Origin: Acidimicrobiia bacterium
Lineage (GTDB): Bacteria; Actinomycetota; Acidimicrobiia; Acidimicrobiales; Bin134
Direction of reading: 5' to 3'
Assembly: GCA_022821445.1 (NCBI GenBank)
Contig: JAJEDQ010000038.1
Location: forward strand, 7,312-71,311
DNA: 64,000 nt
Shown here: piece by piece, positions 1,128 to 60,766 of the stretch
Position numbering within the stretch: the stretch's first letter is position 1
Layout of the letters: every line of letters starts with the position of its first letter
Program-made: the position numbers and the translations under genes
Notes under the pieces: generated by a model
Database searches by the model: none
Seen by the model: only the letters and a program-made list of their open reading frames with translations
What the model was told of the DNA's origin: nothing

Positions 1128-2003
1128 TCAGGTCTCCAACGGGATGTTTTCCGGCTCTTCGGGGACCGCTTCGCCGGCCTCGGGCTCTTCGGGGACCGGC
1201 TCATCAGACTCGGCGTCGTCACCGTCGCCTCGACCCCAGAGCAGAAAGGCCACCGAGCCGATGATCAGGGCCAGCATCACCCAGATGTTCACCCGCACTC
1301 CGGCCAGCTCGCTGGCGAAGTCCACCCTGATGAACTCGATCCACAACCGCCCCAGCGAATAGCCCAGCACGTACAGCCCGAACAGGCGGCCCGGCTTGAG
1401 CTTGAAGCGCTTGCCCACCCACAGCAAGACCCCAACCAAGGCCAGGTTCCAGACGCATTCGTACAAAAAGGTGGGGTGGAAGGTGTCGTCGTCGAGGTAT
1501 TGCAGCCGGCGGTGTTCGGGATCGATCTCCAATGCCCACGGCAGGTCGGTGGGCCGCCCGTACAGCTCCTGGTTGAACCAGTTGCCCCATCGCCCGATGG
1601 CTTGGCCCAATGGCAGGGCGGGGGCCGCCGAGTCGGCGATGTCGGACAGGGGGATTCCCTTCTGCCGGGCATACACCCACATCACCGCCGCGGCTGCGGC
1701 CACCCCGCCGGGAATGCCCAAGCCCCCTTCCCAGATCTGCCACGCCTCGCCCCAGTTCCCCTGGTAGGCCTTCCAATCGGTGACCACGTGGTAGATCCTC
1801 GACCCGATCAGACCGGCGATCACCGCCCACACCGTGGTCGAGCTGGCCAGCTCCGGGGAATGGCCCCGCTGGGTGAGCCGCCGGTGGAACAGCCACCATG
1901 CGGCCAGAACGCAGAGGGCGATCATCAGGCCGTAGGCCCGCAGTTCCAAAGAGCCGATATCCAGACTGCTTGAGCCCGGACTGGGAATCGCTGCTGGCGT
2001 CAC
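1128..2003 (-). CDS. lgt: Prolipoprotein diacylglyceryl transferase with an acidic Pro/Glu-rich C-terminal tail
   Basis: The 291-aa ORF is multi-pass hydrophobic and has the Lgt signature GRWGNWFNQELYGRPT plus GLGIPGG. The tail EPVPEEPEAGEAVPEEPE is encoded by a 15-bp motif CTCTTCGGGGACCG repeated at a 30-bp period (about 1153-1197). Confidence 0.9.
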   Translation of the reverse strand: MTPAAIPSPGSSSLDIGSLELRAYGLMIALCVLAAWWLFHRRLTQRGHSPELASSTTVWAVIAGLIGSRIYHVVTDWKAYQGNWGEAWQIWEGGLGIPGGVAAAAAVMWVYARQKGIPLSDIADSAAPALPLGQAIGRWGNWFNQELYGRPTDLPWALEIDPEHRRLQYLDDDTFHPTFLYECVWNLALVGVLLWVGKRFKLKPGRLFGLYVLGYSLGRLWIEFIRVDFASELAGVRVNIWVMLALIIGSVAFLLWGRGDGDDAESDEPVPEEPEAGEAVPEEPENIPLET

Positions 2004-26000: not shown

Positions 26001-27239
26001 CTACTGCCCGGCGACAACTCGCATGCGGAGGTTGTTGAGGATGGAGACGGTGGTGAATTGACGGGTGCGCTCGCGGTCGAAGGGGAACTTGACCTTGGCC
26101 GCCTCCACCTGGCCGTTTACCAGCGTGGCCATCCATACGGTGCCGGGGTCCTCCCCGTAGAGCGGATCGGGGCCGGCTACCCCGGTGACGGCGATGGCGC
26201 AGTCGGCGTCCAACAGCTTGGCAGCGCCGTGGGCCATGGCGGTTACGGCCTCCTCGCTCACCACTGGGCCCTCGGGCACGTCCAGCAAGTCGAACTTGAC
26301 GTCGCTGGCGTAGGAAACCAGGCCGCCGCGGAACACGTCGCCGGCACCGGGCACGGCGGTGAGCCGGGCGCCGATCAATCCGCCGGTGAGCGACTCGGCC
26401 AGCGCCAGGGTCCAGCCCCGGCTCCTCAGGGCGTCGAGCACGGCCGACTCCATGGTCTCGTCGTCGATGCCGAACACGATGTCGCCGATGATGCCCCGCA
26501 CGATCTGCTCCTCGTTGGCCAAGATCTCGTCCACCTCGGCCTCACTGGGAGCTTTGGCGGTGAGCCTCACCTTGAGGCCCTCCATGCCGGAGGCCAAAAA
26601 GGCGATGGTACACTCGCCGGTCTCGTCCAGGCGCTCGATCTCTTCATGCAGCTTCTCGGCCAGGCCCGACTCGGAGTCACCCCAGGTGCGCAGCGTGCGG
26701 CTTTTGATCACCGCGGTGATCCCCGCCCGCTGCTTGAGATCGGGAAGCACGCACTCCCCCACCATCTGCTGCATCTCCCAGGGCACGCCGGGCACGGCGT
26801 ACACCGCCTTGCCGCCGGTCTCCACCTTGAAGCCGGGTGCGGTGCCCGGCATCACCGACAGCACCTCGGCCCCAACGGGCACGTCGGCCTGGCGCAGGTT
26901 GTTGTCGGGCATGGCCCGGCCCCGGCCTCCGAACACCCGAGAGATGCGCTCGACGATGTCGTCTCGCCGCACCAGCTCCACCCCGAGGGCGGCGGCGATC
27001 ACGTCACGGGTGATGTCGTCCTGGGTGGGACCGAGACCGCCGCACATGATCACCGAGTCGCTTCGCTCCAGAGCCTGGCCCAGCACCGCCTGCATGCGCC
27101 CGAAGTTGTCGCCCACCTTCACCTGGTGGTGCGAGTCGATGCCCGCCAGTGCCAGCTGCTCTCCGATCCACGACGAGTTGGTGTCGACGATCTGGCCGAG
27201 CAAGAGCTCGGTTCCAACTGCGATTACTTCACAATTCAC
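26001..27239 (-). CDS. cinA: CinA family protein (competence/damage-inducible protein A; NMN amidohydrolase domain)
   Basis: 412 aa with N-terminus CEVIAVGTELLLGQIVDTNS and the C-terminal PncC-like domain. The start is GTG at 27239 with no obvious SD. Confidence 0.85.
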   Translation of the reverse strand: MNCEVIAVGTELLLGQIVDTNSSWIGEQLALAGIDSHHQVKVGDNFGRMQAVLGQALERSDSVIMCGGLGPTQDDITRDVIAAALGVELVRRDDIVERISRVFGGRGRAMPDNNLRQADVPVGAEVLSVMPGTAPGFKVETGGKAVYAVPGVPWEMQQMVGECVLPDLKQRAGITAVIKSRTLRTWGDSESGLAEKLHEEIERLDETGECTIAFLASGMEGLKVRLTAKAPSEAEVDEILANEEQIVRGIIGDIVFGIDDETMESAVLDALRSRGWTLALAESLTGGLIGARLTAVPGAGDVFRGGLVSYASDVKFDLLDVPEGPVVSEEAVTAMAHGAAKLLDADCAIAVTGVAGPDPLYGEDPGTVWMATLVNGQVEAAKVKFPFDRERTRQFTTVSILNNLRMRVVAGQ

Positions 27240-27260
27240 GCAGGGAGGCTATACCGCCGG

Positions 27261-27434
27261 CTACTCGCCCGAGGCGGCAATGGCCCCGGCTACTCGCCCG
27301 AGGCGGCAACGGCCCCGGCTATCGGCCCGCGGCGGCAACGGCCCCGGCTACTGGCCCGAGGCGGCAACGGCCCCGGCTACTCGCCCGAGGCGGCAATGGC
27401 CCCGGCTACTCGCCCGAGGCGGCAACGGCCCCGG
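27261..27434. repeat. Tandem array of six 29-bp units (CTACTCGCCCGAGGCGGCAAYGGCCCCGG) between cinA and pgsA
   Basis: Units occupy 27261-89, 27290-318, 27319-47, 27348-76, 27377-405 and 27406-34. Unit 1 equals unit 5 and unit 2 equals unit 6 (a 116-bp higher-order period); units 3 and 4 are variants. A truncated unit lies at 27247-27260. Unit 6 encodes the last 9 codons and the TAG of pgsA. Confidence 0.95.
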
Positions 27435-27987
27435 CCCGGCCGTCGGCCCAGTAGCGCCAGCCGGAGTACAGGGTGATGGCCACGGCCAGCCAGATGGCCA
27501 GCGACACCGACCAGTCGACGTTCTCCAGCGGAGGCAGTGCGGCCACGGTCAGCGCCCCGCCCTGCATCAGAGTCTTCAGCTTGGCCGAATGGCGGGCGGG
27601 CAGCGAGAGGCCGTCTCGGGCCCATCTGGTGCGTACCGCGCTCATCAGGAGCTCCCGCGCCGTGATGATCAACACCGGCACCCAGAACAGCCGGTCCACG
27701 GCCACAAAGCACCAGGCCGCCCCCAGGATCATCACCTTGTCGGCCAGCGGGTCCAAGAAGGCCCCCCAGCGGCTCTCGCTGCCCGAAGACCGGGCCACCC
27801 AGCCGTCGTAGTAGTCGCTGGCGCCCAGCACCCAGCCCATCGCCACCACCGCCCACGACGTCCCTGCGCTGTCGGAGGCAGCCAAGATCAGCACGAAGAG
27901 CACGGGCGAGAGCAGTATCCGGCCCAACGTGATCAGGTTGGCGGTCAACCGCAGATCAGCCCAGGAATAGGCCTCCACCTGGCTCAT
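27406..27987 (-). CDS. pgsA: CDP-diacylglycerol--glycerol-3-phosphate 3-phosphatidyltransferase
   Basis: 193 aa with the CDP-alcohol phosphatidyltransferase motif DYYDGWVAR...GAFLDPLADK and a multi-TM profile. Confidence 0.9.
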   Translation of the reverse strand: MSQVEAYSWADLRLTANLITLGRILLSPVLFVLILAASDSAGTSWAVVAMGWVLGASDYYDGWVARSSGSESRWGAFLDPLADKVMILGAAWCFVAVDRLFWVPVLIITARELLMSAVRTRWARDGLSLPARHSAKLKTLMQGGALTVAALPPLENVDWSVSLAIWLAVAITLYSGWRYWADGRAGAVAASGE

Positions 27988-37729: not shown

Positions 37730-40360
37730 TTAGCGCGGCGCCCGGTCTCGGTCGCGGCCGCGACCCCCGCCGCGACGGTGCGAGCCACCGCCCGGCCCGA
37801 GATCGCCGAACTCGTCGCGCAGCTGGGTTTCGAAGTCGTCTTCAAAGGATGCCGCCTGGGAAGGGCCGTCCCAGTCGCTGCGATCGCGGCCACCCCGCTC
37901 GTTGGAGCGACGGCCGTCGCGGCCCCCCCGGTCATCGCGGCGGTCGTCACGGCGACCCCGACGATCATCACGATCCCGGCCCCCCCGGTCATCAGACCGG
38001 CGGCTGCCGCGGTCGCGGCCTCCCCGGTCATCGCGGCGGTCGTCACGGCGACCCCGGGCATCAGACCGGCGATTGTCGCGGTCGCGGCCCCCCCGGTCAT
38101 CGCGGCGGTCGTCACGGCGATCCCGACGATCATCACGATCCCGGCCCCCCCGGTCTTCAGACCGGCGGCTGCCGCGGTCGTCGCTGCTGTCGTCACCGGT
38201 CAGCTTGAGGCTGATCTTGCCGTTGGGGTCGATGTCTTCCACGACAACCTCGAGGTCATCGCCCAGAGCGACTACGTCCTCAACCCGCTCAACCCGGCGA
38301 CCCCGGCCCAACTTGGAGATGTGTACCAAGCCATCACGGCCCGGGAGGATGTTCACAAACGCCCCGAAGGCGGTGATGTTCACCACCTTTCCGTTGTAGA
38401 CCTCGCCCACGTCGGCGGTCGGCGGGTCCAAGATCAAGCGGATTTGGCGCTCGGCCTCGTCGACCTTGTCCCGATCGGGTGAGGAGATGGTGACGATGCC
38501 GGCGTCTTGGGCGTCGTCCACGTTCACCTCAGCCCCGGTCTCGGCCTGGATCGTGTTGATGACCTTGCCCTTGGGCCCGATCACCTCGCCGATCTTGTCC
38601 AGCGGGATCTCGAACTTGATGATCTTGGGTGCGGTGGGCCGAACGTCATCGCGGGGGGCATCGATAGCCCCGGCCATGACCTCCAGAATCTTGAGCCGGG
38701 CGTCTCGAGCCTGGTTGAGCGCTCCGGCCAGCACATCGGCGGGCAGCCCGTCGATCTTGGTATCGAGCTGCAAGGCGGTTACAAAGTCGGCGGTGCCCGC
38801 CACTTTGAAGTCCATGTCGCCGAAGGCGTCTTCGGCGCCCAGAATGTCGGTGAGCGTGGTGTACCGACCCTCGTGGAAGACCAAGCCCATGGCGATGCCC
38901 GCCACCGGGGCCTTTATGGGCACGCCCGCGTCCATGAGCGACAGCGTGGACGAGCACACCGAGCCCATCGACGTTGAGCCGTTGGACGACAGCACCTCCG
39001 ACACCAAGCGCAGGGTGTAGGGGAACTCGTCCATGCTGGGGATCACCGGCACCAGCGCCTTCTCCGCCAGGGCGCCGTGGCCGATCTCCCGGCGCTTGGG
39101 GCCCCGCATGAAGCCGGTCTCCCCAGTGGAGTAGGGCGGGAAATTGTAGTGGTGTATGTAGCGCTTCTTGTCGATGGGATCGATCCCGTCGATCATCTGG
39201 TCCATCCGAGCCGTGCCCAGCGTGGTGATGTTCAGCACCTGGGTCTCGCCCCGCTCGAACAGCCCTGAGCCGTGGGCGGTCTCCACCACCCCGACATCGG
39301 AGCCCAGCGGCCGGAGATCGGCCGCGGCCCGACCATCGATTCGCACCCCGTCGTGCACGATGCGGTTGCGCACGATGCTCTTGGTGAGCGAGCGGACGGC
39401 GGCCGAGATCTGCTTGTCGGCGCCCTCCAACTCGGCGAACCGGTCGGCCAGTGCGGATGCGACCTCCTCTTTGGCCTGCGACTCGGCCTCCTGGCGCTCG
39501 GTCTTGTCGGCAATCGACATCGCCGCGGCCAGCTTGTCGGCCCCGACCTCGGCCACCGCCGCTTCCACCTCGGGGGTGTAGTCCACCTGGAGGTCGTATT
39601 CCATGGGGGGCTTCACCCCGGCAGTGGCAATGAGACGGCGCTGGAGACCCACCGCTTCTTTGATCCACTCCTTGGACCGCTCCAAACCCTCGGCCAGGGC
39701 GGCCTCATCCACCTTGGGGGCGCCGTTGCTGTAGTGCTCCCAGCCCGCCTCGGTGCCGTTGGCCTCCACCATCATGATCGCCACGTCGCCGTCGTCCAGA
39801 ACCCGTCCGGCGACCACCATCTCGAACGTGGAGTCGGCACCCTCGGCGTAGGTGGGATGGGGAATCCACTCCCCATCGGCACTGTGGGCCACCCGCACCG
39901 CGCCGATCGGGCCGGCGAACGGGATGCCCGAGATGCTCAGCGCAGCCGATGCCCCGTTGATGGCGATCACGTCGTAGGGGTTCTCCTGGTCGGCGCCGAG
40001 AACGGTTCCGACGATGTGGATCTCGTTGCGGAACCCGTCGGGAAACGAGGGCCGCAGCGGCCGATCGATGAGTCGGCACGTCAGGATGGCCGATTCGGGG
40101 GCCCGACCCTCCCGCCGGAAGAACGAGCCCGGGATCTTGCCCGCGGCATACATCCGCTCTTCGATGTCGACGGTGAGGGGGAAGAAGTCGATACCCTCGC
40201 GAACACGACGGGCAGCCGTCGCGGTCACCAGGATGGTGGTGTCGCCCATGCGAGCGACTACGGCACCGTCGGCCTGTCCGGCCAGACGACCTGCCTCAAA
40301 AGACAGGGTTTTGTTCTCGGCACCGCTGACTGCGGCCGAGACGGTGATGGCTTCCGCCAT
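37730..40360 (-). CDS. pnp: Polyribonucleotide nucleotidyltransferase (PNPase) with a ~154-aa Arg/Asp-rich repeat C-terminal extension
   Basis: Two RNase PH domains, a KH domain and an S1 domain (GEVYNGKVVNITAFGAFVNILPGRDGLVHIS) are present. The start is ATG 40360, preceded by GGAGAGGAG. The tail after ...KISLKLTG is DDRGGRDRDDRRDRRDDRR... Confidence 0.95.
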   Translation of the reverse strand: MAEAITVSAAVSGAENKTLSFEAGRLAGQADGAVVARMGDTTILVTATAARRVREGIDFFPLTVDIEERMYAAGKIPGSFFRREGRAPESAILTCRLIDRPLRPSFPDGFRNEIHIVGTVLGADQENPYDVIAINGASAALSISGIPFAGPIGAVRVAHSADGEWIPHPTYAEGADSTFEMVVAGRVLDDGDVAIMMVEANGTEAGWEHYSNGAPKVDEAALAEGLERSKEWIKEAVGLQRRLIATAGVKPPMEYDLQVDYTPEVEAAVAEVGADKLAAAMSIADKTERQEAESQAKEEVASALADRFAELEGADKQISAAVRSLTKSIVRNRIVHDGVRIDGRAAADLRPLGSDVGVVETAHGSGLFERGETQVLNITTLGTARMDQMIDGIDPIDKKRYIHHYNFPPYSTGETGFMRGPKRREIGHGALAEKALVPVIPSMDEFPYTLRLVSEVLSSNGSTSMGSVCSSTLSLMDAGVPIKAPVAGIAMGLVFHEGRYTTLTDILGAEDAFGDMDFKVAGTADFVTALQLDTKIDGLPADVLAGALNQARDARLKILEVMAGAIDAPRDDVRPTAPKIIKFEIPLDKIGEVIGPKGKVINTIQAETGAEVNVDDAQDAGIVTISSPDRDKVDEAERQIRLILDPPTADVGEVYNGKVVNITAFGAFVNILPGRDGLVHISKLGRGRRVERVEDVVALGDDLEVVVEDIDPNGKISLKLTGDDSSDDRGSRRSEDRGGRDRDDRRDRRDDRRDDRGGRDRDNRRSDARGRRDDRRDDRGGRDRGSRRSDDRGGRDRDDRRGRRDDRRDDRGGRDGRRSNERGGRDRSDWDGPSQAASFEDDFETQLRDEFGDLGPGGGSHRRGGGRGRDRDRAPR
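37733..38194. repeat. Degenerate tandem coding repeats specifying the RD/RGG-rich tail of PNPase
   Basis: Blocks such as GTCGCGGCCCCCCCGGTCATCGCGGCGGTCGTCACGGCGA recur at about 37917, 38017 and 38080. At protein level, DRGGRDRD(D/N)RR... recurs at least 4 times. The repeat also generates spurious long antisense ORFs (37778..38482 + and others). Confidence 0.85.
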
Positions 40361-40414
40361 TTTTGCTCCTCTCCGGACCACGCATGGTCCGAGCGGGCCG
40401 GACGGAGCCAGTTC

Positions 40415-42914: not shown

Positions 42915-43006
42915 GTGGGAAGGCTCGGCCATCAAGATCTCCCGGGAGAGGAGAATGAGCTTCATGGCTTTTGGTGGGAAGGTTCCGCCATCAAGATCTC
43001 CCGGGA
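42915..43006. repeat. 33-bp duplication of the ribF 3' end (31/33 identical) at a 59-bp offset
   Basis: GTGGGAAGGCTCGGCCATCAAGATCTCCCGGGA at 42915-42947 versus GTGGGAAGGTTCCGCCATCAAGATCTCCCGGGA at 42974-43006. Both encode SREILMAEPSH on the minus strand. The downstream copy is immediately followed by TGA (42912-14), 5 nt before the LLM gene ATG. Confidence 0.9.
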
Positions 43007-43990
43007 CAAGGCGACGTCGATGCGGAGCTGTTTCACCAGGGGTTCGATGCCGTCGAAACGGTGCTCGCTTCTCAGCAACTCCACAAACTCGACTCTGGCC
43101 TCCTCGCCGTAGAGGTCTCCCTCGAAATCCAGGAGATGCGCCTCCAACAGCGATTGCTGGGCGTGCTCGTAGAACGTGGGCCGCCGGCCGATGTTGATGG
43201 CTGCCATGTACCGGGACCCGTCGGGACGGGTATACCAGCCGGCGTAAACCGCGTCGGCGGGCCAGGCCATAGCTATGGACACCGGGATGTTGGCGGTGGG
43301 AAATCCGATGGTCATCCCCCGCCGATCCCCCAGCACCACCTTGCCCCTGATCTCGTGGTACCGCCCCAGCATGGCCGCCGCCGTGCGAACATCCCCGCCG
43401 GCCAGCGCCCGGCGCACGGCAGTTGAGGACACCGGCTCGGGCCATTTGTCATCATGATGAAGGAGCTTCACCGCGTGAACCTCGAAGCCCATCTCCATGC
43501 CGAATTTCCGCAACGTGTCGATGTTTCCCAGACGCGCCCGGCCGAAGTGGAAATCTTCGCCCACCACCACGCTTCGAACCTGAAGCCTCTTCACAAACAC
43601 CTCGCGCACAAAGTCTTCCGGCATCGTGTGGGCTCGGTCGGGAGAGAACTCAATCAGGTACACGTATTCGATGCCGGCCGCATCAAGCAGCTCCAGCTTC
43701 TGATCGAGGGAGTTCAGGAGCTTGGGGGCGTTCTCCGGCCGCAACACCAGCGCTGGATGGCGGTCGAATGTAACCACTGCGGGGGCCACACCCAATCGAT
43801 CAGCTTCGCCAAGAAGCTGATCGATCACCGCCTGGTGTCCAACATGGACGCCGTCGTACACGCCGATACTGGCCGCGGTCTCCTGAATGCCTTCGAAGCG
43901 GCCGAAGTCCTCGATGACCTGCACCGCTCTGCACGGTAGCGGGCGAAGCCTCAGAGTGGACAATCCCGGTCGTGGCGATGGAGCGCTCAC
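42962..43990 (-). CDS. ribF: Bifunctional riboflavin kinase / FAD synthetase
   Basis: IGVYDGVHVGHQAVI (FAD synthetase nucleotidyltransferase motif), plus GFPTANI and a C-terminal kinase domain. The true start is probably downstream of 43990 (for example within ...AVQVIEDFG...). Confidence 0.88.
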   Translation of the reverse strand: MSAPSPRPGLSTLRLRPLPCRAVQVIEDFGRFEGIQETAASIGVYDGVHVGHQAVIDQLLGEADRLGVAPAVVTFDRHPALVLRPENAPKLLNSLDQKLELLDAAGIEYVYLIEFSPDRAHTMPEDFVREVFVKRLQVRSVVVGEDFHFGRARLGNIDTLRKFGMEMGFEVHAVKLLHHDDKWPEPVSSTAVRRALAGGDVRTAAAMLGRYHEIRGKVVLGDRRGMTIGFPTANIPVSIAMAWPADAVYAGWYTRPDGSRYMAAINIGRRPTFYEHAQQSLLEAHLLDFEGDLYGEEARVEFVELLRSEHRFDGIEPLVKQLRIDVALSREILMAEPSHQKP

Positions 43991-43996
43991 CGGCCC

Positions 43997-44869
43997 TCAC
44001 CGGGGGATTACCACTGCTGGTTTGACCAAGCCAGGGAGATGGGCCTCGTACACGGCCAGGAGGTGGCCCTGTGGTCCGAGCACAGCCCACGGACCTTCTC
44101 CCTCCGCCGACAGATCATCGGCTGCCAACACCTGTCCGCTCCCCACTCTCTGGCCCAAAGCCTCGTCGATCGACACCGCGGGGTAGTCCCGCAAGACCTC
44201 CGCCATAGTCAAGAGCACCGGCGCGTCCACCGGCCGGGCTTCTTCGACTGCGAACGAGCCGATGGCCATTCGCCGCAACGCCCGAAGGTGTCCGCCGCCG
44301 CCCAAGGCGGTGCCGACGTCGGCGGCCAACGAGCGGATATACGTTCCCGAGGAGCAGGTGACCTCCATCCGGTAAACCCCGGCGTCAGCATCCAACGGGG
44401 CTACTGCCAGTTCATGGACGGTCACCGGCCGGGCTTCCCGCTCGACTTCGACTCCTTCGCGGGCCAACTCGTGCAGCCGACGGCCCCCGACTCTCACCGC
44501 GGAGACCATCGGTGGAATCTGCAATATGTCGCCGACGAAGCCTGATGCGGCTTGGGCCACCTGCTCCGGGGTCACACCAGACATGTCGTGGACCGCGGTG
44601 ACCTCACCGGCGGCATCCAGCGTGGTGGTCTCGGCACCAAGCACCAATTCGCCCACATACTGTTTGGGCAGCGGGGTGAGAAACCGCAACAGCCTGGTGG
44701 CACGGCCTACTCCCAACAGCAGCACCCCGGTGGCATCGGGGTCCAGGGTGCCCGCGTGCCCCACTTTGCGGGTGCCGAAAAAACCCCGGGCCTTGGCCAC
44801 CACGTCGTGGGACGTCCACCCAGCCTCTTTGTCGATTACCGCCAATCCGTCGACGGCACTCCCGCTCAT
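43997..44869 (-). CDS. truB: tRNA pseudouridine(55) synthase
   Basis: MSGSAVDGLAVIDKEAGWTSHDVV..., GHAGTLDPDATGVLL (catalytic Asp). The ATG at 44869 lies inside the 41-bp repeat. Confidence 0.92.
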   Translation of the reverse strand: MSGSAVDGLAVIDKEAGWTSHDVVAKARGFFGTRKVGHAGTLDPDATGVLLLGVGRATRLLRFLTPLPKQYVGELVLGAETTTLDAAGEVTAVHDMSGVTPEQVAQAASGFVGDILQIPPMVSAVRVGGRRLHELAREGVEVEREARPVTVHELAVAPLDADAGVYRMEVTCSSGTYIRSLAADVGTALGGGGHLRALRRMAIGSFAVEEARPVDAPVLLTMAEVLRDYPAVSIDEALGQRVGSGQVLAADDLSAEGEGPWAVLGPQGHLLAVYEAHLPGLVKPAVVIPR

Positions 44870-44934
44870 TGGTCGATGACCGCCAGTCCGTCGACGGCAC
44901 TCCCGCTCATTGGTCGATGACCGCCAGTCCGTCG
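44831..44934. repeat. 41-bp tandem repeat (2.5 copies) spanning the rbfA stop and truB start
   Basis: Copies at 44831-44871, 44872-44912 and a partial copy at 44913-44934; copies A and B differ at 2 of 41 positions. On the minus strand the array forms a chain: rbfA TGA overlaps GTG (GTGA), then a 12-codon ORF VSASDGLAVIDQ, then ATGA, then a 14-codon ORF MSGSAVDGLAVIDQ, then ATGA, then truB. Confidence 0.95.
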
Positions 44935-44941
44935 GAAGCGC

Positions 44942-45316
44942 TCACCTTTCGTCCTCATCAGCCAGGTCGCGGAGAATTCGATCGACTCGCTCGCCGGCCG
45001 AGATCGACGGATCAAGGGCGAACACCAGGTCGGGAACTCTCCGCATCGCTGCTGAGCGGGCCACCGCCTGTTTGAGTTGGAGCCGGTGCTCCTCCAGGGC
45101 CTCGAGGGCGGCAGAAGCAGCCTCTTCGTCCAGAGCGCTGATGAACACGGTTGCCCGGCTCAACTCGACGCTGGTTTCCACACCGGTGATGCTGGCCAGC
45201 TCCAAGCGGTCGTCGTCCACGCGGGCCAGTTCAGAAGCCACGATCTCTCGCAGCAGCTCGCCGAGCCGAGCTGACCGTGAGTAGCGGGAGGGGCGCGATG
45301 GCCGACTGCGAGCCAC
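44942..45316 (-). CDS. rbfA: Ribosome-binding factor A
   Basis: ...RLGELLREIVASELARVDDDRLELASITGVETSVELSRATVFISAL... is typical of RbfA. GTG 45316, 2 nt after the DUF503 stop, is preferred. The track ORF extends to 45382 and would overlap DUF503. Confidence 0.85.
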   Translation of the reverse strand: MARSRPSRPSRYSRSARLGELLREIVASELARVDDDRLELASITGVETSVELSRATVFISALDEEAASAALEALEEHRLQLKQAVARSAAMRRVPDLVFALDPSISAGERVDRILRDLADEDER

Positions 45317-45318
45317 GG

Positions 45319-45612
45319 CTATTCGTCTGTGTTCAGCCAGTGGGAGGAGGAGCTCACTACTTCGATATCGGGAATCGACCACATATAGCGATCCAACTCA
45401 TCGGCGAGCGTTCGGCATTGGCTGGGTTGCCCCGATACCACCGCCACGCCCACCTCTGCCCGCTGCCAGAGGTCGGTGTGGCCGGTTTCTGCCACCGAGA
45501 CGCCGAATTTACGGGTTACGCCCGACAGGACAGGGCGCAGCACCGAACGCCGCTCTTTCAGCGAACGAGAGCCCGGTATGTGCAAGTCGTAGACCACGGC
45601 AAGCACATGCAT
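45319..45612 (-). CDS. DUF503 (YlxP-like) protein
   Basis: 97 aa with MHVLAVVYDLHIPGSRSLKERRSVLRPVLSGV.... It occupies the conserved position between infB and rbfA. Confidence 0.8.
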   Translation of the reverse strand: MHVLAVVYDLHIPGSRSLKERRSVLRPVLSGVTRKFGVSVAETGHTDLWQRAEVGVAVVSGQPSQCRTLADELDRYMWSIPDIEVVSSSSHWLNTDE

Positions 45613-45614
45613 CG

Positions 45615-48359
45615 TCAGACTCGGGCGACTTCTCGCTCCTCGAACGTCTCGATGACGTCACCCTGCTTGAGGTCTTGGAAGTCGGACAGGCCGATACCGC
45701 ACTCGTATCCCGACTGCACCTCGCGCACATCTTCCTTGAAGCGCTTGAGAGAGGACACTGTGCCCCGCCAGATGACCGCACCGTCTCGCAGGAACCGGAC
45801 TTTGGAGCCTCGAGTGATGGCCCCGTTGAGCACGTAGCAGCCGGCCACGGCGCCCACCCGGGGAATCCGGAACACTTCCCGTACTTCGGCATCGCCGGTG
45901 ACGACCTCTTCGAACTCCGGCGCCAGCATTCCCACCATGGCGTTCTCCACATCCTCGATCAGGTTGTAGATGATCTCGTAGGTGCGGATCTCCACCTTCT
46001 CGAGTTCGGCCAGCTCTCTCGCCTTGCGATCGGGTCTCACGTTGAAGCCGATGATGGTGGCGTTGGACGCGGCCGCCAGTTGGATGTCGTTGGCGGTTAC
46101 TCCACCCACACCCCGATGGACAAAAGCCAGCTTCACCTCGTCGCGGCCTAGGCGTTGGAGACTGTCCACCACTGCTTCCAGCGATCCGTTCACATCGGCT
46201 TTGACGATGAGGTTCAGCGTCGCAGTCTCCCCAGCCTGGATCTGGCTGAAGATGTCTTCTAGGCGCGCTCCGCCCGAAGTGGCTGCGGCATCCCGGCCCA
46301 AGCTGGCAATGCGCTGAGAGTGCTCGCGTGTCTGGGCGACCTTGGCCGCCACCTTCTCGCTGGGGGCCACCACGAAGGAGTCGCCGGCGTTGGCCACGTC
46401 GGAGAGTCCGAGCACCTGCACCGGCTTCGATGGCAGCGCCTCTTGAATCTGGTTGCCGCGGTCGTCGAGCAGGGCCCGGGCCCGTCCCCAGGAAGCTCCG
46501 GCAACTACTGGGTCCCCTCGCCTCAAAGTTCCGTTCTGAACCAACAGAGTGGCCACCGGGCCACGCCCGATATCCAAGTTGGACTCCAGCACCACGCCGC
46601 GAGCCCGACCGTCTGAGTTGGCCCGCAGATCCTCCACCTCGGCCACCACGGCCAGTTGTTCGAGCAAGTCGTCGATCCCCAGGTTCTGAAGGGCGGAGAC
46701 CTCAACCACGATGGTTTCGCCTCCCCACTGCTCGGGCACCAATTCATGCTCGGAAAGCTGCTGCATGGTCCGATTGGGGTCGGCATTGTTGCGGTCGATC
46801 TTGTTCACGGCAACCACAATGGGCACATCGGCGGCCCGAGCGTGGTTGATGGCCTCCAGGGTCTGGGGCATCACGCCATCGTCGGCCGCCACCACCAGCA
46901 CCACGATGTCGGTGGCATCGGCGCCCCGGGCCCGCATTGCCGTGAATGCCGCGTGGCCGGGAGTGTCAATGAAAGTCAGCGTTCGCCCGTCTTTTTCCAC
47001 CTGATAGGCACCGATGTGCTGGGTGATGCCACCGGCCTCGCCCTCGGCCACGTTGGCGCTGCGAATCTGGTCAAGCAGCTTGGTCTTACCGTGGTCCACA
47101 TGGCCCATAACGGTGATAACCGGAGGCCGGACCGGGTTGCCATCTTCGGGCTCTTCCTCTTCGAAGTCGGCTTCGAGCAGCTTGAGCAGTTCGTTCTCCT
47201 GCTCTTCACCGGGATCCACCAGCCGGACTTCGGCACCGATCTCCGCAGCAAACAGCTCGATCATGTCGTCGGTCAGAGACTGGGTGGCGGTGACCATCTC
47301 ACCCTGCTGCATCAGGAAGCGCACCACATCGGCGGCCGTCTGGTTCAGCTTCGGACCCACCTCCAACGGCGTCGAGGCTCGCTCGATCACCACCACCCCA
47401 GTGGGCGCAGCCGCGTCCGTTGGGGTGTAGTCGGGGATGTTCATGGGCTGAAGGTCTTCGGCCACCCGCCTACGCCGCCGACTCTTGCGCCGCCTCTGTT
47501 GAGGACGCTGGGGGCCGCCTCGACCTCGGCCGCCTGGAGCTCCCGTTCCACTGGGGGGCGCACCGAGCGCGCCAGCGGGACCGCGGGAGGCAAGAGACGC
47601 AGGAGACCGTCCTGGTGAACCAGCCCCTGGCCCCTGGGTGCCAACTGAGGGTCGCATTGGGCCTCGAGGACCTCTTCGGGGGCTGGGTGCCGGGCCCCGC
47701 CCACCCCGGCCGGGGGGTGGGGGAATCGGCTTGCCCGAAGAAGACGTCGGCGGCCGGCCGGGGGGCGGCGGAATCGGCTTGCCCGAACGCGAGAGCGGGG
47801 GGCTGGTCCGAGCAGATGCGGCTGGCTGAGCAGCCGGCGGTTGGGCCGCCGGTCTCGGCACCGATCGCGGCGGTGCCGGTGGAGCATCGGGAGGAGGCGC
47901 AATCGACGGCTCTGCTGGACGGGAGCGGGGAGGCACTCCCCCACTCGAGGTAACCACCCGCGTCGGCTTGGGCGGCTCGGGCTCGACAGGCTCCGGCTCT
48001 GCTTCGGCCGCGACCGGCTCAGGCTCGACAGATTCCGGTTCCGGCTCTGGCTCCGGTGCGGGCTCTGGCTCGGGCTCTGGCTCTGGTGCGGGCTCAGGTT
48101 CCGGTTCCGGCTCGGGCTCCGGCTCTGGTTCGGGCTCAGGGGGCCGAACCAGGCCATCACGATGCGCTCGCCGGCGGACGCGGTCCGCTTGGGCATCCAC
48201 GATGCTTGAGGAGTGGCTGTTGACGCCGATCCCCAGCGTGACGCAGAGGTCAAGCGTTTCCTTGTTCGTGAGGCCGAGCTCGCGGGCAAGCTCGTAGACC
48301 CGAATTTTTGCTGGCAAAAAGCTCTTTCTTGGTCCGTCCGCAGTGCGCGGCCGACCCAT
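45615..48359 (-). CDS. infB: Translation initiation factor IF-2
   Basis: 914 aa with an N-terminal [11 protein letters not shown] domain, a Pro/Glu/Ala-rich linker, a G-domain ([17 protein letters not shown]) and the C-terminal domains. Confidence 0.97.
47964..48143. repeat. Hexanucleotide-type coding repeat specifying a (PE)n / [10 protein letters not shown] linker in IF-2
   Basis: About 60 aa [60 protein letters not shown], encoded by GGCTC(T/G/A)GG(C/T)TC-type iterations. Confidence 0.85.
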
Positions 48360-58297: not shown

Positions 58298-59089
58298 CTA
58301 ACTGCCGATGGATGCCAACTCGAAACGGACAATCTCACCGTCACCCAAACGAGATTGTACGGTCTCCTTCTCTCCGAACATGCCCTGTTCCAGTAGGACG
58401 CGCTCGGCAAACCATGCCCGCAAGCGGCCGCTGACGATCTTCTCCCAAGCTTGCTCGGGCTTGCCCTCAGCTTTGGTCATCTCAGTGAGGGCGATCCGCT
58501 CCCGCTCAACTTCGTCGGGGTCGACGTCGTCGCGATGCAGCACCGAGGGCTTGGCAAAGGCGATGTGAAGAGCCACTTCGTGGGCCTGGTCTTGGCTCAT
58601 GGCGCGGGCCTCTACCACCACGGCACTGGTCCCTCTGCCATCCTGAGTGTGGAGGTAGGTGTCCAGGATGTTGCCATCGGCAGCTTCGACCTTGACAACC
58701 TTGCCCAACTGGACGTTCTCCTTCTTGGCCAGACTGAGATCCTCGAGTGCGGCTTGGCGAGTCTCCACCGATTCTTCGCCTGAGGCCAGTACCAACTGAG
58801 CCAGCTCATCAGCCAGGGCGGTGAAGTCATCGGCCTTGGCCGAGAAGTCGGTCTCACAGCGAAGTTCGACAATGGCAGCGGCATTGCCGTCCACCGCCAA
58901 GGCCACCGCGCCCTGATCGCTGGCCCGCTCGGCCCGAGCAGCCGCCTTGGCGATGCCCTTCTCGCGCAGCCATTGGGTGGCGGCCTCCATGTCTCCGTCG
59001 CTTTCGGCGAGGGCGCGCTTGCAATCCATCATTCCGGCGCCAGTGGCCTGGCGCAGCGCCTTGACGTCTTGGGCGGTAAACGAACTCAC
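58298..59089 (-). CDS. tsf: Translation elongation factor Ts
   Basis: 263 aa with [37 protein letters not shown] (UBA-like N-domain). The GTG start overlaps the rpsB stop (GTGA). Confidence 0.95.
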
Positions 59090-60030
59090 GCTTGCTCCTG
59101 GAGATCGGTTTGCTCGGCTTCGACAGTTGGCTCCGCGGCCTCGGGGACTGCCCCTTGGACCTCAGCCTCCGCCGCCACAGGGACAGCCTGCTGGACCTCA
59201 GCCTCCGCCGCCACAGCGACAGCCTGCTGGACCTCAGCCTCCGCCGCCACAGGGACAGCCTCGGCGGTTGGCTTGTCTTCGACTGCGGCCTCGGGCTGAG
59301 GAGCATCAGTATCAGGCTGGATTTTGGCAACGTTGTTTCCCTGGGCGATGAAGCGACCCTCAAGAACGGCGTCGCTGATAATCCGACACATCAGCTCGCC
59401 GGAGCGGATGGCGTCGTCATTGCCGGGAATGACGTACTGGATCACATCGGGATCGCAATTGGTGTCCACCACTGCGATCACCGGGAGCTTCAACTTGTTC
59501 GCCTCGGCCACGGCGATGTGCTCTTTTTTGGTATCCAGAACGAACACCGCATCAGGGGGCCGGGTCAGATCTCGGATGCCGTTGAGGTTCCGCTCCAATT
59601 TCGCCAGTTCCCGGGAAATCAGAAGGGCCTCCTTCTTGGGCATAACGTCAAGTTCGCCCGATCTGCGCATGCGCTGGAACTCCTTCATCTTGCCCATGCG
59701 CTTGGAGATGGTCTCGAAATTGGTCAGGAGACCACCTAGCCACCGCTCGTTCACATAAGGCATTCCCACACGCTCTGCGTAACTCTGCACGCTGTCTTGG
59801 GCCTGCTTCTTGGTGCCCACAAACAGCACTTGACCCCCTCCAGCCACGAGGTCGCGTACATAAGTGTAGGCAGCCTCAATGCGGGCAAGCGTCTGTGTCA
59901 GGTCGATGATGTAGATGCCGTTGCGCTCACCGAAAATGAAGCGCTGCATCTTGGGATTCCAACGGCGAGTCTGGTGTCCGAAGTGGACTCCGGCATCCAG
60001 CAGTTGGCGCATCGTCACGACTGGCGCCAT
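59086..60030 (-). CDS. rpsB: 30S ribosomal protein S2 with an Ala/Glu/Val-rich repeat C-terminal tail
   Basis: [22 protein letters not shown]... is a canonical S2 core of about 255 aa. The tail is ...[46 protein letters not shown].... Confidence 0.96.
59157..59264. repeat. Three in-frame 36-bp tandem repeats in the rpsB 3' region
   Basis: GGACCTCAGCCTCCGCCGCCACAG(G/C)GACAGCCTGCT begins at 59157, 59193 and 59229. Each encodes a 12-aa unit AEAEVQQAV(A/P)VA. Confidence 0.9.
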
Positions 60031-60166: not shown

Positions 60167-60766
60167 TTATCCATAAGCAGGAAGCCGACTTCGACCGCGG
60201 GGCTCAAGGTGCGGCACCAGCCGCACCCTTCCGGCGCTCAACACCAACGCGGGGTCTAGATAGCGGTCTCCGTGTCGGATGCTGAAAAAGAACCGCTCAG
60301 AGGTGGTGCCCAGCTGCTGGCCGAGCGCCACCCGGTCGCCCTCTTCGACGGCAATCCAACCCAGGTACCCGTAGGATGTGCGTAGCCCGTCGCGGTGGAG
60401 CACGGTCACAAACCGGTTGTGAACCACCGATCCGGCGAACACCACCTCCCCCTCCGCCGACGCCCGAACCGGCGATCCGGGCTCGGGGTCGTATTCCAAG
60501 CCCCTGTTGCCCGGTGCCCCCACATGCGCAGGGGCCCGGAACGGATCGATCACTTCTGCATCCACCGGAGACCGATACGCCAAGGGGTGCTCCACCGCAT
60601 CCTGGCTCTGGACACCAGATTCCTGAGCAGCGTGCGGCGGGCTCTGGACAACAGATTCCTGAGCAGCGTGCGGCGGGCTCTGGACAACTGGTGGGCCGGG
60701 TTGCAGAGTCAGCCAGGCCGAAACCGCGGCAGCCGCCAACCCGCCGATGCGCATTCCCAGCACCAT
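60167..60766 (-). CDS. M23 family (LytM-domain) peptidase, secreted or membrane-anchored
   Basis: 199 aa with an N-terminal hydrophobic segment and a core GNRGLEYDPEPGSPVRASAEGEVVFAGSV...VTVLHRDGLRTSYGYL. It contains the repeat VVQSPPHAAQES. Confidence 0.8.
   Translation of the reverse strand: MVLGMRIGGLAAAAVSAWLTLQPGPPVVQSPPHAAQESVVQSPPHAAQESGVQSQDAVEHPLAYRSPVDAEVIDPFRAPAHVGAPGNRGLEYDPEPGSPVRASAEGEVVFAGSVVHNRFVTVLHRDGLRTSYGYLGWIAVEEGDRVALGQQLGTTSERFFFSIRHGDRYLDPALVLSAGRVRLVPHLEPRGRSRLPAYG
60607..60690. repeat. In-frame 36-bp tandem repeat (2 copies plus a partial copy) in the M23 peptidase gene
   Basis: CTGGACA(C/A)CAGATTCCTGAGCAGCGTGCGGCGGGCT at 60607 and 60643, with a partial copy from 60679. 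It encodes (S/E)VVQSPPHAAQES twice. Confidence 0.9.

What the first reader, a model, noticed from the sequence alone, without database searches (positions are those of the whole stretch)
44831..44945. 41-bp tandem repeat at the rbfA/truB junction builds a relay of start/stop-overlapping mini-ORFs (MIRU-like)
Seen: there are 2.5 tandem copies of a 41-bp unit (44831-44871, 44872-44912, 44913-44934). Because 41 is not a multiple of 3, each copy shifts the frame, yet each junction recreates an overlapping stop/start. The rbfA TGA overlaps GTG (GTGA at 44942-44945) and opens VSASDGLAVIDQ*. That stop overlaps ATG (ATGA, ATG at 44910) and opens MSGSAVDGLAVIDQ*. That stop in turn overlaps the truB ATG (44869), which begins MSGSAVDGLAVIDKEAGWTSHD. 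The GTG-initiated copy looks like the ancestral truB start (VSASDGLAVID-KEAGW...) fused directly to the rbfA stop. Established knowledge: mycobacterial MIRUs are 40-100 bp intercistronic tandem repeats whose small ORFs overlap the stop and start codons of flanking genes, preserving translational coupling. Inference: this is a MIRU-like VNTR that may tune truB translation and is probably copy-number variable between strains.
Basis: partly seen in the sequence, partly recalled or inferred. Interest (0 to 1): 0.55.

Follow-up and report, generated by a model that had tools for sequence, protein, structure and literature searches.

The report
Duplicated truB start at rbfA junction
A 41-base piece containing the start of the truB gene has been copied in tandem just after the rbfA gene in a sponge-symbiont bacterium, leaving two tiny decoy genes chained stop-to-start in front of the real truB; related genomes carry 0, 1 or 2 decoys, so it is a real but modest variable repeat made from local sequence, not a mobile element.

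Summary
Window 44831-44934 holds 2.5 copies of a 41-nt unit, two of them identical. On the minus strand the rbfA stop overlaps a GTG (GTGA) that opens a 12-codon mini-ORF. Its stop overlaps an ATG (ATGA) that opens a 14-codon mini-ORF, and that stop overlaps the truB ATG.

The relay is arithmetic, not repeated coincidence: any unit that contains NTGA and has a length of 2 mod 3 regenerates the overlap at every copy.

The organism is a Candidatus Poriferisocius relative (sponge-associated Acidimicrobiia). Relatives confirm that the plain GTGA-fused start is ancestral. The same unit occurs with one decoy in about ten related genomes, and with two decoys in the window and, independently, in a sister lineage. 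Bootstrapped trees place the repeat in three separate clades next to repeat-free sisters, which means repeated loss or gain.

Different duplications of 38/45, 40 (x4) and about 68 nt occupy the same junction in other lineages. None of 126 outgroup loci has one.

The unit is built from truB's own 5' codons and occurs nowhere else in the DNA held. It therefore resembles MIRUs in architecture but is not a member of that family. Any effect on TruB expression is untested. Interest is moderate to low.

The parts
44942..45382 (-). rbfA, given as the longest ORF. Gene callers on near-identical contigs choose a shorter start. Its stop TGA is at 44944-44942.
   Evidence: Pfam RBFA E=3.5e-20; ORF list; gene calls on L081.
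44942..44945 (-). GTGA overlap between the rbfA stop and the ancestral truB start codon (GTG). It now opens mini-ORF 1.
   Evidence: Sequence. Simple-state relatives L007-L010, L014-L016 and L025 have the same NTGA directly opening truB.
44907..44945 (-). Mini-ORF 1 (decoy truB 5' end): GTG, 12 codons, VSASDGLAVIDQ, with a TGA that overlaps the next ATG.
   Evidence: Homologous mini-ORFs occur in L001-L006, L038, L084, L086 and L088.
44866..44910 (-). Mini-ORF 2 (second decoy): ATG, 14 codons, MSGSAVDGLAVIDQ, with a TGA that overlaps the truB ATG.
   Evidence: It is absent from the closest genome-level relatives L001-L005 and L038, which have one unit fewer.
43997..44869 (-). truB (tRNA pseudouridine-55 synthase), 290 aa, starting at the ATG in the last repeat copy.
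   Evidence: Pfam TruB_N E=4.8e-49; homologs 95-96% identical with the same MSGSAVDG N-terminus.
44893..44933 (-). Exact 41-nt repeat copy 1: 21-nt core GACGGACTGGCGGTCATCGAC (44933-44913) plus 20-nt CAATGAGCGGGAGTGCCGTC (44912-44893).
   Evidence: 0 mismatches.
44852..44892 (-). Exact 41-nt repeat copy 2, identical to copy 1.
   Evidence: 0 mismatches.
44831..44851 (-). Third, partial copy, which is the real truB codons 7-13 (DGLAVID): GACGGATTGGCGGTAATCGAC. It matches the decoy cores at 19/21 positions.
44934..44945 (-). Head of the ancestral start, GTGAGCGCTTCC (VSAS). By my own manual alignment it matches the ATG head ATGAGCGGGAGTGCCGTC at about 8 of 12 positions with a 6-nt indel.
   Evidence: Sequence; manual alignment, so only suggestive.
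44847..44856 (.). 10-nt palindrome CCGTCGACGG, present once per ATG-type unit (second copy at 44888-44897). It may be relevant to slippage and has no demonstrated role.
   Evidence: the repeat finder I8.

Best explanation
The array is a variable-number tandem repeat generated locally. It arose by tandem duplication of the rbfA-stop/truB-start junction itself.

The ancestral state is a 4-nt GTGA overlap. An old duplication created a second truB 5' end with an ATG start. That left the original GTG start as a 12-codon decoy, which runs out of frame into the TGA embedded in the new ATGA. In the window's lineage the resulting 41-nt unit was duplicated once more very recently, since the two copies are identical, and this added a second decoy.

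The unit carries its own NTGA and has a length of 2 mod 3. Any copy number therefore leaves rbfA intact, truB intact, and an unbroken chain of -4 overlaps between them. That is why such slippage products survive at this position and why copy number can drift up and down.

Inferred, not shown: ribosomes reach the real truB ATG mainly by serial termination-reinitiation (translational coupling) through the decoys, possibly with some loss of TruB output per added unit. The mini-peptides themselves probably have no function. The variation is most likely neutral or nearly so.
For: Structure and exact copies.

Ancestral GTGA state in relatives.

The same 41-nt unit with one decoy occurs in L001-L006, L038, L084 and L086. 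Two decoys occur in the window and L081. L088 also has two, but its units carry that lineage's own variants (AAATGAGTGGG against the window's CAATGAGCGGG), so that expansion was independent.

Bootstrapped NJ tree on rbfA + truB + part of ribF: type-A monophyly 0/200. The clade (L006, L084 with repeat + L012, L023 without) has 100% support, and all four share the TAGTGA/CAGGCC head. This fits a collapse of exactly one unit.

Other duplications sit at the same junction: 45 nt (L013/20/21), 38 nt (L017-19), 40 nt x4 (L022) and about 68 nt (L011). L017 (SPAdes scaffold) and L018 (chromosome-level assembly) show the same array sequence in the stretch printed.

None of 126 outgroup Acidimicrobiia loci has an upstream decoy scoring 17/21 or better, against 18-20/21 at offsets of 41 or 45 nt within the clade.

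Local origin: the decoy core matches the real truB codons at 19/21. The 20-mer specific to the unit is found only at this junction in 88 loci and nowhere else in the window.

Other junction-straddling duplications in the clade follow the same logic: 59 nt at ribF/next gene in L002, 35 nt at DUF503/rbfA in L026, and the 29 nt x6 array at pgsA/cinA in the window. The window's 3n arrays lie inside long ORFs.

NTGA (-4) is the most common coupling geometry in prokaryotes, and short ORFs can deliver ribosomes to a downstream gene (review PMC12548453).

No Rfam family, no significant RNA fold, and no promoter or terminator in the region.
Against: No expression data exist, so coupling through the decoys is inferred from geometry only.

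Shine-Dalgarno potential upstream of the three starts (-5.6, -6.2 and -6.2 kcal/mol) is indistinguishable from the window's background (-4.6 +/- 3.0). I therefore cannot show that the repeat-borne ATGs depend on coupling.

The type-A unit has persisted, with its frame and its -4 overlaps intact, across lineages whose TruB is only 82-96% identical. The junction has also been duplicated at least four separate times in one clade. Both facts could point to positive selection rather than neutrality.

The first step (GTG head to ATG head plus 6 nt) cannot be reconstructed exactly.

The L081/L169 sample is nearly identical, and partly 100% identical, to the window. It may not be an independent read set.

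The excess of non-3n arrays in this clade disappears statistically once this junction is left out: 5 in 245 kb against 5 in 558 kb.
Confidence: 0.7

Rival explanations
1. Adaptive translational rheostat. Selection favours decoy mini-ORFs because each reinitiation step lowers or sets the TruB:RbfA ratio. Copy-number change would then be a heritable tuning mechanism.
For: More than half of the species-level Poriferisocius genomes sampled carry a duplication at this one junction (17 of 27 genome-collection loci; 18 of 28 counting the window). These trace to at least four origins plus two secondary expansions, against 0 of 126 outgroup loci. Type A keeps its frame and its -4 overlaps across lineages with 82-96% TruB identity. 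In all five types the real truB start lies within 3 nt of an upstream mini-ORF stop.
Against: An unbroken chain follows automatically from duplicating a unit that contains the junction. Unit lengths are 41, 38, 68 (2 mod 3), 45 (0) and 40 (1), which is no significant frame bias. The repeat has been lost or collapsed next to repeat-bearing sisters. The decoy peptide is relaxed (I to F, K to Q, D to G). Similar duplications without a neat relay occur at other junctions. No expression data exist.
Confidence: 0.17
2. Insertion of a MIRU-type interspersed or mobile repeat element at the truB start codon.
For: Several features match the published description of MIRUs: unit size, position between two cistrons of an operon, the same orientation as the genes, mini-ORFs with -4 overlaps, and copy-number variation.
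Against: The 21-nt core of the unit is truB's own coding sequence at 19/21 positions. No other copy lies in the 64-kb window with up to 3 mismatches. The 20-mer specific to the unit is found only at this junction in 88 loci. Other lineages have duplications with different boundaries that include the rbfA 3' end, and these can only be local. The host is not a mycobacterium.
Confidence: 0.03
3. Assembly or sequencing artefact that inflated the copy number.
For: Tandem repeats are a classic source of assembly error. The only other assembly with the identical 2.5-copy array (L081) comes from a sample that is 100% identical to the window elsewhere (L169), so it may share reads.
Against: The array is 104 nt, shorter than a typical read. 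L081 differs from the window by 4 SNPs over 3720 nt, so it is a separate assembly. An unrelated run (L088, Logan SRR22586459) shows a 2.5-copy state in the sister lineage with diverged copies, which cannot be a collapse or expansion artefact. The 1.5-copy state is the same in chromosome-level and short-read assemblies.
Confidence: 0.04
4. The mini-ORFs encode functional micropeptides, or the repeat is a structured regulatory RNA.
For: The mini-ORFs are open and conserved in length in many genomes.
Against: The peptides are copies of the TruB N-terminus and show relaxed substitutions. The RNA fold z-score is -0.95, with 31 of 200 shuffles folding at least as well. No Rfam match has an E-value of 1 or better.
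Confidence: 0.02

Closest known systems
Mycobacterial interspersed repetitive units (MIRUs; Supply et al. 1997, as summarised in review PMC12548453)
   Same: Tandem units of about 40-100 bp lie between two cistrons of an operon, in the orientation of the genes. Each unit carries a small ORF whose stop overlaps the downstream start with -4 spacing, so insertion or expansion does not break translational coupling. Copy number differs between related genomes.
   Different: MIRUs are a dispersed, apparently mobile family with a shared consensus at many loci in mycobacteria. Here the unit is a copy of the local truB 5' codons (and, in sister lineages, of the rbfA 3' end). It was found at one locus only, in an Acidimicrobiia sponge symbiont. 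Different lineages made different units at the same junction.
Ordinary bacterial VNTRs / slipped-strand tandem duplications
   Same: Short tandem duplication with gain and loss of whole units between close relatives. The newest copies are identical and the older ones have diverged.
   Different: The period is not a multiple of three, yet the array touches two essential-type genes. It is tolerated because the unit contains the stop/start overlap itself. The same junction was hit repeatedly in one clade.
Translational coupling by termination-reinitiation at NTGA overlaps, and leader-ORF 'bicistronic design' (review PMC12548453; Huber et al. 2019, 2023, cited there)
   Same: Three consecutive -4 overlaps (GTGA, ATGA, ATGA). 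A short upstream ORF ends on the start codon of the gene it feeds.
   Different: Here two short ORFs are chained in series between two normal genes. Coupling has not been measured in this organism.

Membership tests
MIRU | Tandem direct repeats of roughly 40-100 bp between cistrons of an operon, co-oriented with the genes | tested here: met
   41-nt unit, 2.5 copies, between rbfA and truB on the minus strand, within the infB-DUF503-rbfA-truB-ribF cluster.
MIRU | Small ORF in the repeat whose ends overlap the stop and start codons of the flanking genes (-4 spacing) | tested here: met
   GTGA at 44945-44942, ATGA at 44910-44907 and ATGA at 44869-44866.
MIRU | Interspersed: many loci per genome share one consensus (a mobile-like family) | tested here: not met
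   No further copy of the 41-mer or of its 20-nt specific part in the 64-kb window with up to 3 mismatches. The degenerate 20-mer occurs only at this junction in 88 loci. Limitation: no whole genome could be scanned.
MIRU | The unit is sequence foreign to the flanking genes (an insertion), not a copy of them | tested here: not met
   The decoy core is 19/21 identical to the real truB codons. The first copy is the ancestral truB start seen unduplicated in relatives.
MIRU | Occurs in mycobacteria and resembles the MIRU consensus sequence | tested here: not met
   The host is a Candidatus Poriferisocius-like Acidimicrobiia. Similarity to the MIRU consensus itself was not tested, because no MIRU sequence was available in the tools.
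VNTR (variable-number tandem repeat) | Whole-unit copy-number differences between related genomes | tested here: met
   0 units: L007-L010, L012, L014-L016, L023. 1 unit: L001-L006, L038, L084, L086. 2 units: window, L081, L088. Gains and losses are supported by bootstrap.
VNTR (variable-number tandem repeat) | Copy-number polymorphism within a population or strain | not testable with these tools
   Reads are needed. The only near-identical assembly (L081) has the same copy number.
Termination-reinitiation coupled gene pair | Stop and start overlap or lie within a few nucleotides (NTGA) | tested here: met
   Three successive -4 overlaps. The geometry matches the most common coupling motif.
Termination-reinitiation coupled gene pair | Downstream translation depends on upstream translation | not testable with these tools
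   No expression data. Shine-Dalgarno scoring was inconclusive.

The most novel reading that the evidence does not exclude
In Poriferisocius sponge symbionts the rbfA-truB junction would be a selected, evolvable translational rheostat. Lineages repeatedly build self-templated, MIRU-analogous decoy chains of different unit sizes from the junction's own sequence, expand them and collapse them. The number of serial reinitiation steps would set how much TruB is made per RbfA. More broadly, these genomes might generate MIRU-like intercistronic VNTRs de novo at many gene junctions without any mobile element.
Probability: 0.15. Interest if true: 0.6.

Novelty: new variant of a known kind. Interest (0 to 1): 0.38.

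Why it matters
The finding shows how an architecture described for the mobile MIRU elements can arise with no element at all. That architecture is an intercistronic tandem repeat whose mini-ORFs keep translational coupling intact. Here it arises simply by duplicating a stop/start overlap with a unit length of 2 mod 3.

The locus gives a natural series of 0, 1 or 2 decoys, plus 38-, 40-, 45- and 68-nt variants. Such a series could be used to measure the efficiency of serial termination-reinitiation.

The locus could also serve as a strain-typing marker for an uncultured sponge-symbiont genus.

There is a practical warning for annotation. Gene callers can pick the wrong truB start, or miss the decoys, at such junctions.

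Tried and rejected
(1) Structured RNA: the RNA fold of 44815-44975 (minus strand) gives z = -0.95, and Rfam has no match at E <= 1. Rejected.

(2) Own promoter or terminator in the repeat: none found.

(3) Shine-Dalgarno comparison of the three starts: all near background, so uninformative.

(4) Metagenome scan for the unit-specific 27-mer (degenerate): 0 hits. The follow-up protein-based metagenome scan returned only relatives at 70% identity or less. These were useless for strain variation, so I used them as outgroup controls.

(5) First NJ tree with unequal sequence lengths was distorted and discarded. It was replaced.

(6) My automatic rbfA-stop finder mislabelled several loci (WIN, L010, L015, L020, L022). 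Those junctions were read by eye.

(7) Genome-wide propensity for junction duplications in this clade: suggestive examples exist, but the density excess is not significant once this junction is excluded. I do not claim it.

(8) Exact reconstruction of the first duplication step (GTG head to ATG head, 35 to 41 nt): only a speculative multi-step path is available, so I do not claim it.

(9) Microhomology at duplication boundaries: read by eye from the sequences, CTGGCTGAC and CTGGCCGTC lie 38 nt apart in the inferred pre-duplication sequence of the 38-nt type. The other types are unclear. No tool tested this, so it remains a hypothesis.

(10) Literature searches for an earlier description in Poriferisocius or of junction-straddling duplications: nothing relevant.
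Full report
OBSERVATION. All genes in the neighbourhood lie on the minus strand: infB (45615-48359), a DUF503 gene (45319-45612), rbfA (44942-45382), truB (43997-44869) and ribF (42962-43990). Pfam confirms the last four. Tandem Repeats Finder reports an array at 44831-44934 with period 41, 2.5 copies and 96% matches. Two 41-mers, at 44893-44933 and 44852-44892, are identical, and none is expected in shuffles.

Read on the minus strand, the rbfA stop TGA (44944-44942) overlaps a GTG (44945-44943) that opens VSASDGLAVIDQ*. Its TGA (44909-44907) overlaps an ATG (44910) that opens MSGSAVDGLAVIDQ*. That TGA (44868-44866) overlaps the truB ATG (44869), which opens MSGSAVDGLAVIDKEAGWTSHD.

One qualification matters. 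The two ATGA overlaps are one duplicated sequence, not two coincidences. If a unit contains NTGA and its length is 2 mod 3 (41 = 13x3+2), then reading from the NTG of one copy always lands in frame on the TGA of the next. The relay is therefore an arithmetic consequence of what was duplicated.

ANATOMY. On the minus strand the array reads as follows:
- the head, GTGAGCGCTTCC
- a 21-nt core, GACGGACTGGCGGTCATCGAC
- a 20-nt spacer, CAATGAGCGGGAGTGCCGTC
- the core again
- the spacer again
- the real truB codons, GACGGATTGGCGGTAATCGAC, followed by AAAGAG...

The core is the DGLAVID coding segment of truB, and the decoy cores match the real one at 19/21 positions. The spacer supplies CAA-TGA and ATG-AGC-GGG-AGT-GCC-GTC. 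Each ATG-type unit also contains the palindrome CCGTCGACGG.

WHO AND WHERE. TruB and its flanks match metagenome-assembled genomes labelled Candidatus Poriferisocius / Acidimicrobiia from sponges. The nearest species-level representatives have 96% TruB identity.

COMPARATIVE EVIDENCE. I extracted the junction from 27 Poriferisocius-clade genome loci and from several metagenome contigs.

(a) Simple state. The rbfA TGA overlaps the truB GTG or ATG with no repeat, and TruB starts V-S-x-x-DGLAVIDK. This is seen in L007-L010, L014-L016 and L025. L012 and L023 have the TAGTG variant. The early-branching L024 and L026 have GTGA with longer heads.

(b) Type A, the window's unit. One decoy is present in L001-L005 and L038 (96% TruB identity), L006 (84%), L084/85 (82%) and L086/87 (83%). 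Two decoys are present in the window, in L081 and in L088.

(c) L088 comes from a different sequencing run and belongs to the sister lineage. Its units carry that lineage's own variants (AAATGAGTGGG, GGCGG), and its copies have diverged from each other. Its second unit therefore arose independently of the window's.

(d) Other duplications at the same junction:
- 45 nt in L013/L020/L021. The unit includes the rbfA 3' end. The decoy VTIADGLAVIDRG* ends 3 nt before the GTG.
- 38 nt in L017/L018/L019. The decoy VTTADGLADEAEE* has a GTGA overlap.
- 40 nt x4 at 99% identity in L022.
- An old duplication of about 68 nt in L011, also ending in a GTGA overlap.

L017 (a SPAdes scaffold) and L018 (a chromosome-level assembly) show the same array sequence in the stretch printed. 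The one-decoy type-A state is likewise the same in chromosome-level and MEGAHIT assemblies.

PHYLOGENY. I built an NJ tree on about 2.2 kb (rbfA, truB and part of ribF) with 200 bootstraps.
- Type-A monophyly has 0% support.
- The window group has 100% support.
- The clade of L006 + L084 (type A) with L012 + L023 (simple) has 100% support.
- The 45- and 38-nt types form one clade with 100% support, so they may share one origin.

L012 and L023 share the TAGTGA/CAGGCC head with L006 and L084. That is what a collapse of exactly one 41-nt unit, by recombination between cores, would leave behind. Hence there are at least four origins (A, B/C, D, E), two secondary expansions, and at least two losses or else short recombinational transfers. 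This behaviour is that of a VNTR.

CONTROLS. In 126 outgroup Acidimicrobiia loci, the best upstream match to the 21 nt encoding the TruB N-terminal segment never exceeds 16/21. Inside the clade the decoys score 18-20/21 at fixed offsets of 41 or 45 nt.

The degenerate 20-mer specific to the ATG head occurs only at this junction in 88 loci. It has no second site in the window with up to 3 mismatches. A scan of the metagenome collection found no hit.

IS THE 2.5-COPY STATE REAL? L081 carries the same array and differs from the window by 4 SNPs in 3720 nt. Another scaffold of the same sample (L169) is 100% identical to the window over 2382 nt, so that sample may be the window's own source or very close to it. 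I therefore do not count L081 as a fully independent read set. L088 gives independent proof that two-decoy alleles exist. The array is also only 104 nt long, shorter than a typical read.

IS IT A GENERAL HABIT OF THESE GENOMES? There are suggestive parallels.
- The window's only other non-3n array with a period of 29 nt or more (29 nt x 6.2, 27257-27435) consists of copies of the pgsA 3' end with its TAG stop. It sits between pgsA and cinA.
- L002 has a 59-nt duplication across the junction of ribF and the next gene, with a decoy MAWISFSSPGKS*.
- L026 has a 35-nt duplication across DUF503/rbfA, with a decoy MTTHRLNPPE*.
- L015, L022 and L010 have duplications of gene 3' ends that include the stop.
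- The window's arrays with periods that are multiples of three (30, 36, 36 and 69 nt) lie inside long ORFs.

This fits a simple filter. A non-3n duplication survives only if it straddles a gene boundary, where one intact copy of each gene end remains.

The quantitative excess of non-3n arrays (4.1 against 0.9 per 100 kb) is driven by the rbfA-truB junction itself. Without it the counts are 5 in 245 kb against 5 in 558 kb. I do not claim a genome-wide trend. What the data show is a hotspot at this junction.

MECHANISM. Shown: local origin, the structure, copy-number change, and the preservation of both flanking genes at any copy number.

Inferred: ribosomes finishing rbfA reinitiate at the overlapping GTG, translate 12 codons, terminate on the ATGA, reinitiate, and repeat until they reach truB. 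NTGA (-4) is the most common and an efficient coupling geometry. Short ORFs whose only role is to deliver ribosomes are documented, and MIRUs are cited as a natural example (review PMC12548453).

I could not show that the ATG starts depend on coupling. Anti-Shine-Dalgarno duplex energies upstream of the three starts (-5.6, -6.2 and -6.2 kcal/mol) are all close to the window's background of -4.6 +/- 3.0. There is no significant RNA structure (z = -0.95), no Rfam family, and no promoter- or terminator-like site. The decoy peptides show relaxed substitutions (I to F, K to Q, D to G) relative to the nearly invariant real TruB segment, which argues against a peptide function.

Why this particular junction is hit so often is unresolved. 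For the 38-nt type, reading the sequences by eye, CTGGCTGAC and CTGGCCGTC lie exactly 38 nt apart in the inferred pre-duplication sequence. That suggests microhomology-mediated slippage. It is my own inference, not a tool result, and the other types give no clear signal.

COMPARISON WITH KNOWN SYSTEMS. The architecture matches the published description of MIRUs in four respects: an intercistronic position, co-orientation with the genes, mini-ORFs with -4 overlaps, and variable copy number.

Membership fails on the defining points that could be tested. The unit is not interspersed, as far as 64 kb plus 88 loci can show. It is not foreign sequence but a copy of truB's own start. The host is not a mycobacterium. 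Similarity to the MIRU consensus was not tested.

The array is best filed as a locally generated VNTR at a translationally coupled gene junction, a self-templated analogue of a MIRU. I found no earlier description of it in the searchable literature.

VERDICT.

The most likely reading (about 0.7) is a near-neutral slippage product that is tolerated because the unit carries its own stop/start overlap. An adaptive role in setting TruB output remains possible (about 0.15-0.2). That reading is made more interesting by the recurrent, independent duplications at this one junction within a single clade.

Novelty: a new variant of a known kind. Interest: moderate to low (0.38).

Noticed in passing
window 27257-27435 (minus-strand genes pgsA 27406-27987 and cinA 26001-27239): A second non-3n junction array: 29 nt x 6.2 copies, 92% matches. 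Each unit is a copy of the pgsA 3' end (AVAASGE) with its TAG stop, and the array fills the gap up to the cinA GTG. It forms no neat start/stop relay. It is identical in scaffold L169 from ENA sample ERZ23491296.
   Followed up: partly
L002 4860-4983; L026 2480-2548; L015 5970-6060; L022 4916-5048 and 3902-3973; L010 3854-3888: Other tandem duplications in Poriferisocius relatives that straddle gene boundaries: 59 nt across ribF/luciferase-like monooxygenase (decoy MAWISFSSPGKS*), 35 nt across DUF503/rbfA (decoy MTTHRLNPPE*), 46 nt and 69 nt copies of gene 3' ends including the stop, and a 15-nt repeat of the truB stop region.
   Followed up: partly
L022 2848-3005 (OZ220474.1): The rbfA-truB junction here carries four 99%-identical copies of a different 40-nt unit (rbfA 3' end + TGA + GTG + first truB codons). 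This is the largest array seen at this junction, and it allows two alternative mini-ORF paths.
   Followed up: partly
window 37983-38125 (within pnp, 37730-40381, minus strand): An in-frame 69-nt x 2.1 repeat (91% matches) in the Arg/Asp-rich C-terminal tail of polynucleotide phosphorylase. Smaller 12-, 33- and 39-nt periodicities overlap it.
   Followed up: no
window 47964-48137 (infB N-terminal region): Hexanucleotide and 18-nt repeats (TCCGGC x17) that encode the long (EP)n tract near the IF-2 N-terminus.
   Followed up: no
window 59131-59261 and 60604-60688; window 1153-1213: In-frame 36-nt (x3.6 and x2.4, 90-97% matches) and 30-nt (x2) tandem repeats inside long minus-strand ORFs (59086-60030, 60167-60766, 1128-2003). 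The genes were not identified.
   Followed up: no
window 45319-45382: The longest rbfA ORF (GTG at 45382) overlaps the DUF503 gene by 64 nt. Gene callers on near-identical contigs start rbfA further downstream (99-124 aa), so the true rbfA start is uncertain.
   Followed up: no
L099 921-1108 (Ga0206678_10008320, outgroup marine Acidimicrobiia): A 94-nt x 2.0 tandem duplication at 98% identity lies just upstream of truB, apparently within or near rbfA. Its period is not a multiple of 3, so it would disrupt the frame if it lies inside the gene. It could also be an assembly artefact.
   Followed up: no
L052 4917-5095 (outgroup, CAWBYL010000005.1): A 62-nt x 2.9 array at 97% identity whose unit contains an internal inverted repeat (GAAACGATGCG...CGCATCGTTTC). 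It may be a REP-like hairpin repeat.
   Followed up: no
L082/L083 around position 701: A simple GTGA junction, but TruB carries a 5-residue longer, Glu/Gly-rich head (VSEGEGRAADG) that resembles the purine-rich rbfA 3' end. It may be an in-frame 15-nt duplication of the junction. Similar 293-aa forms are common among the homologs (P0002-P0005, P0033, P0054, P0060).
   Followed up: no
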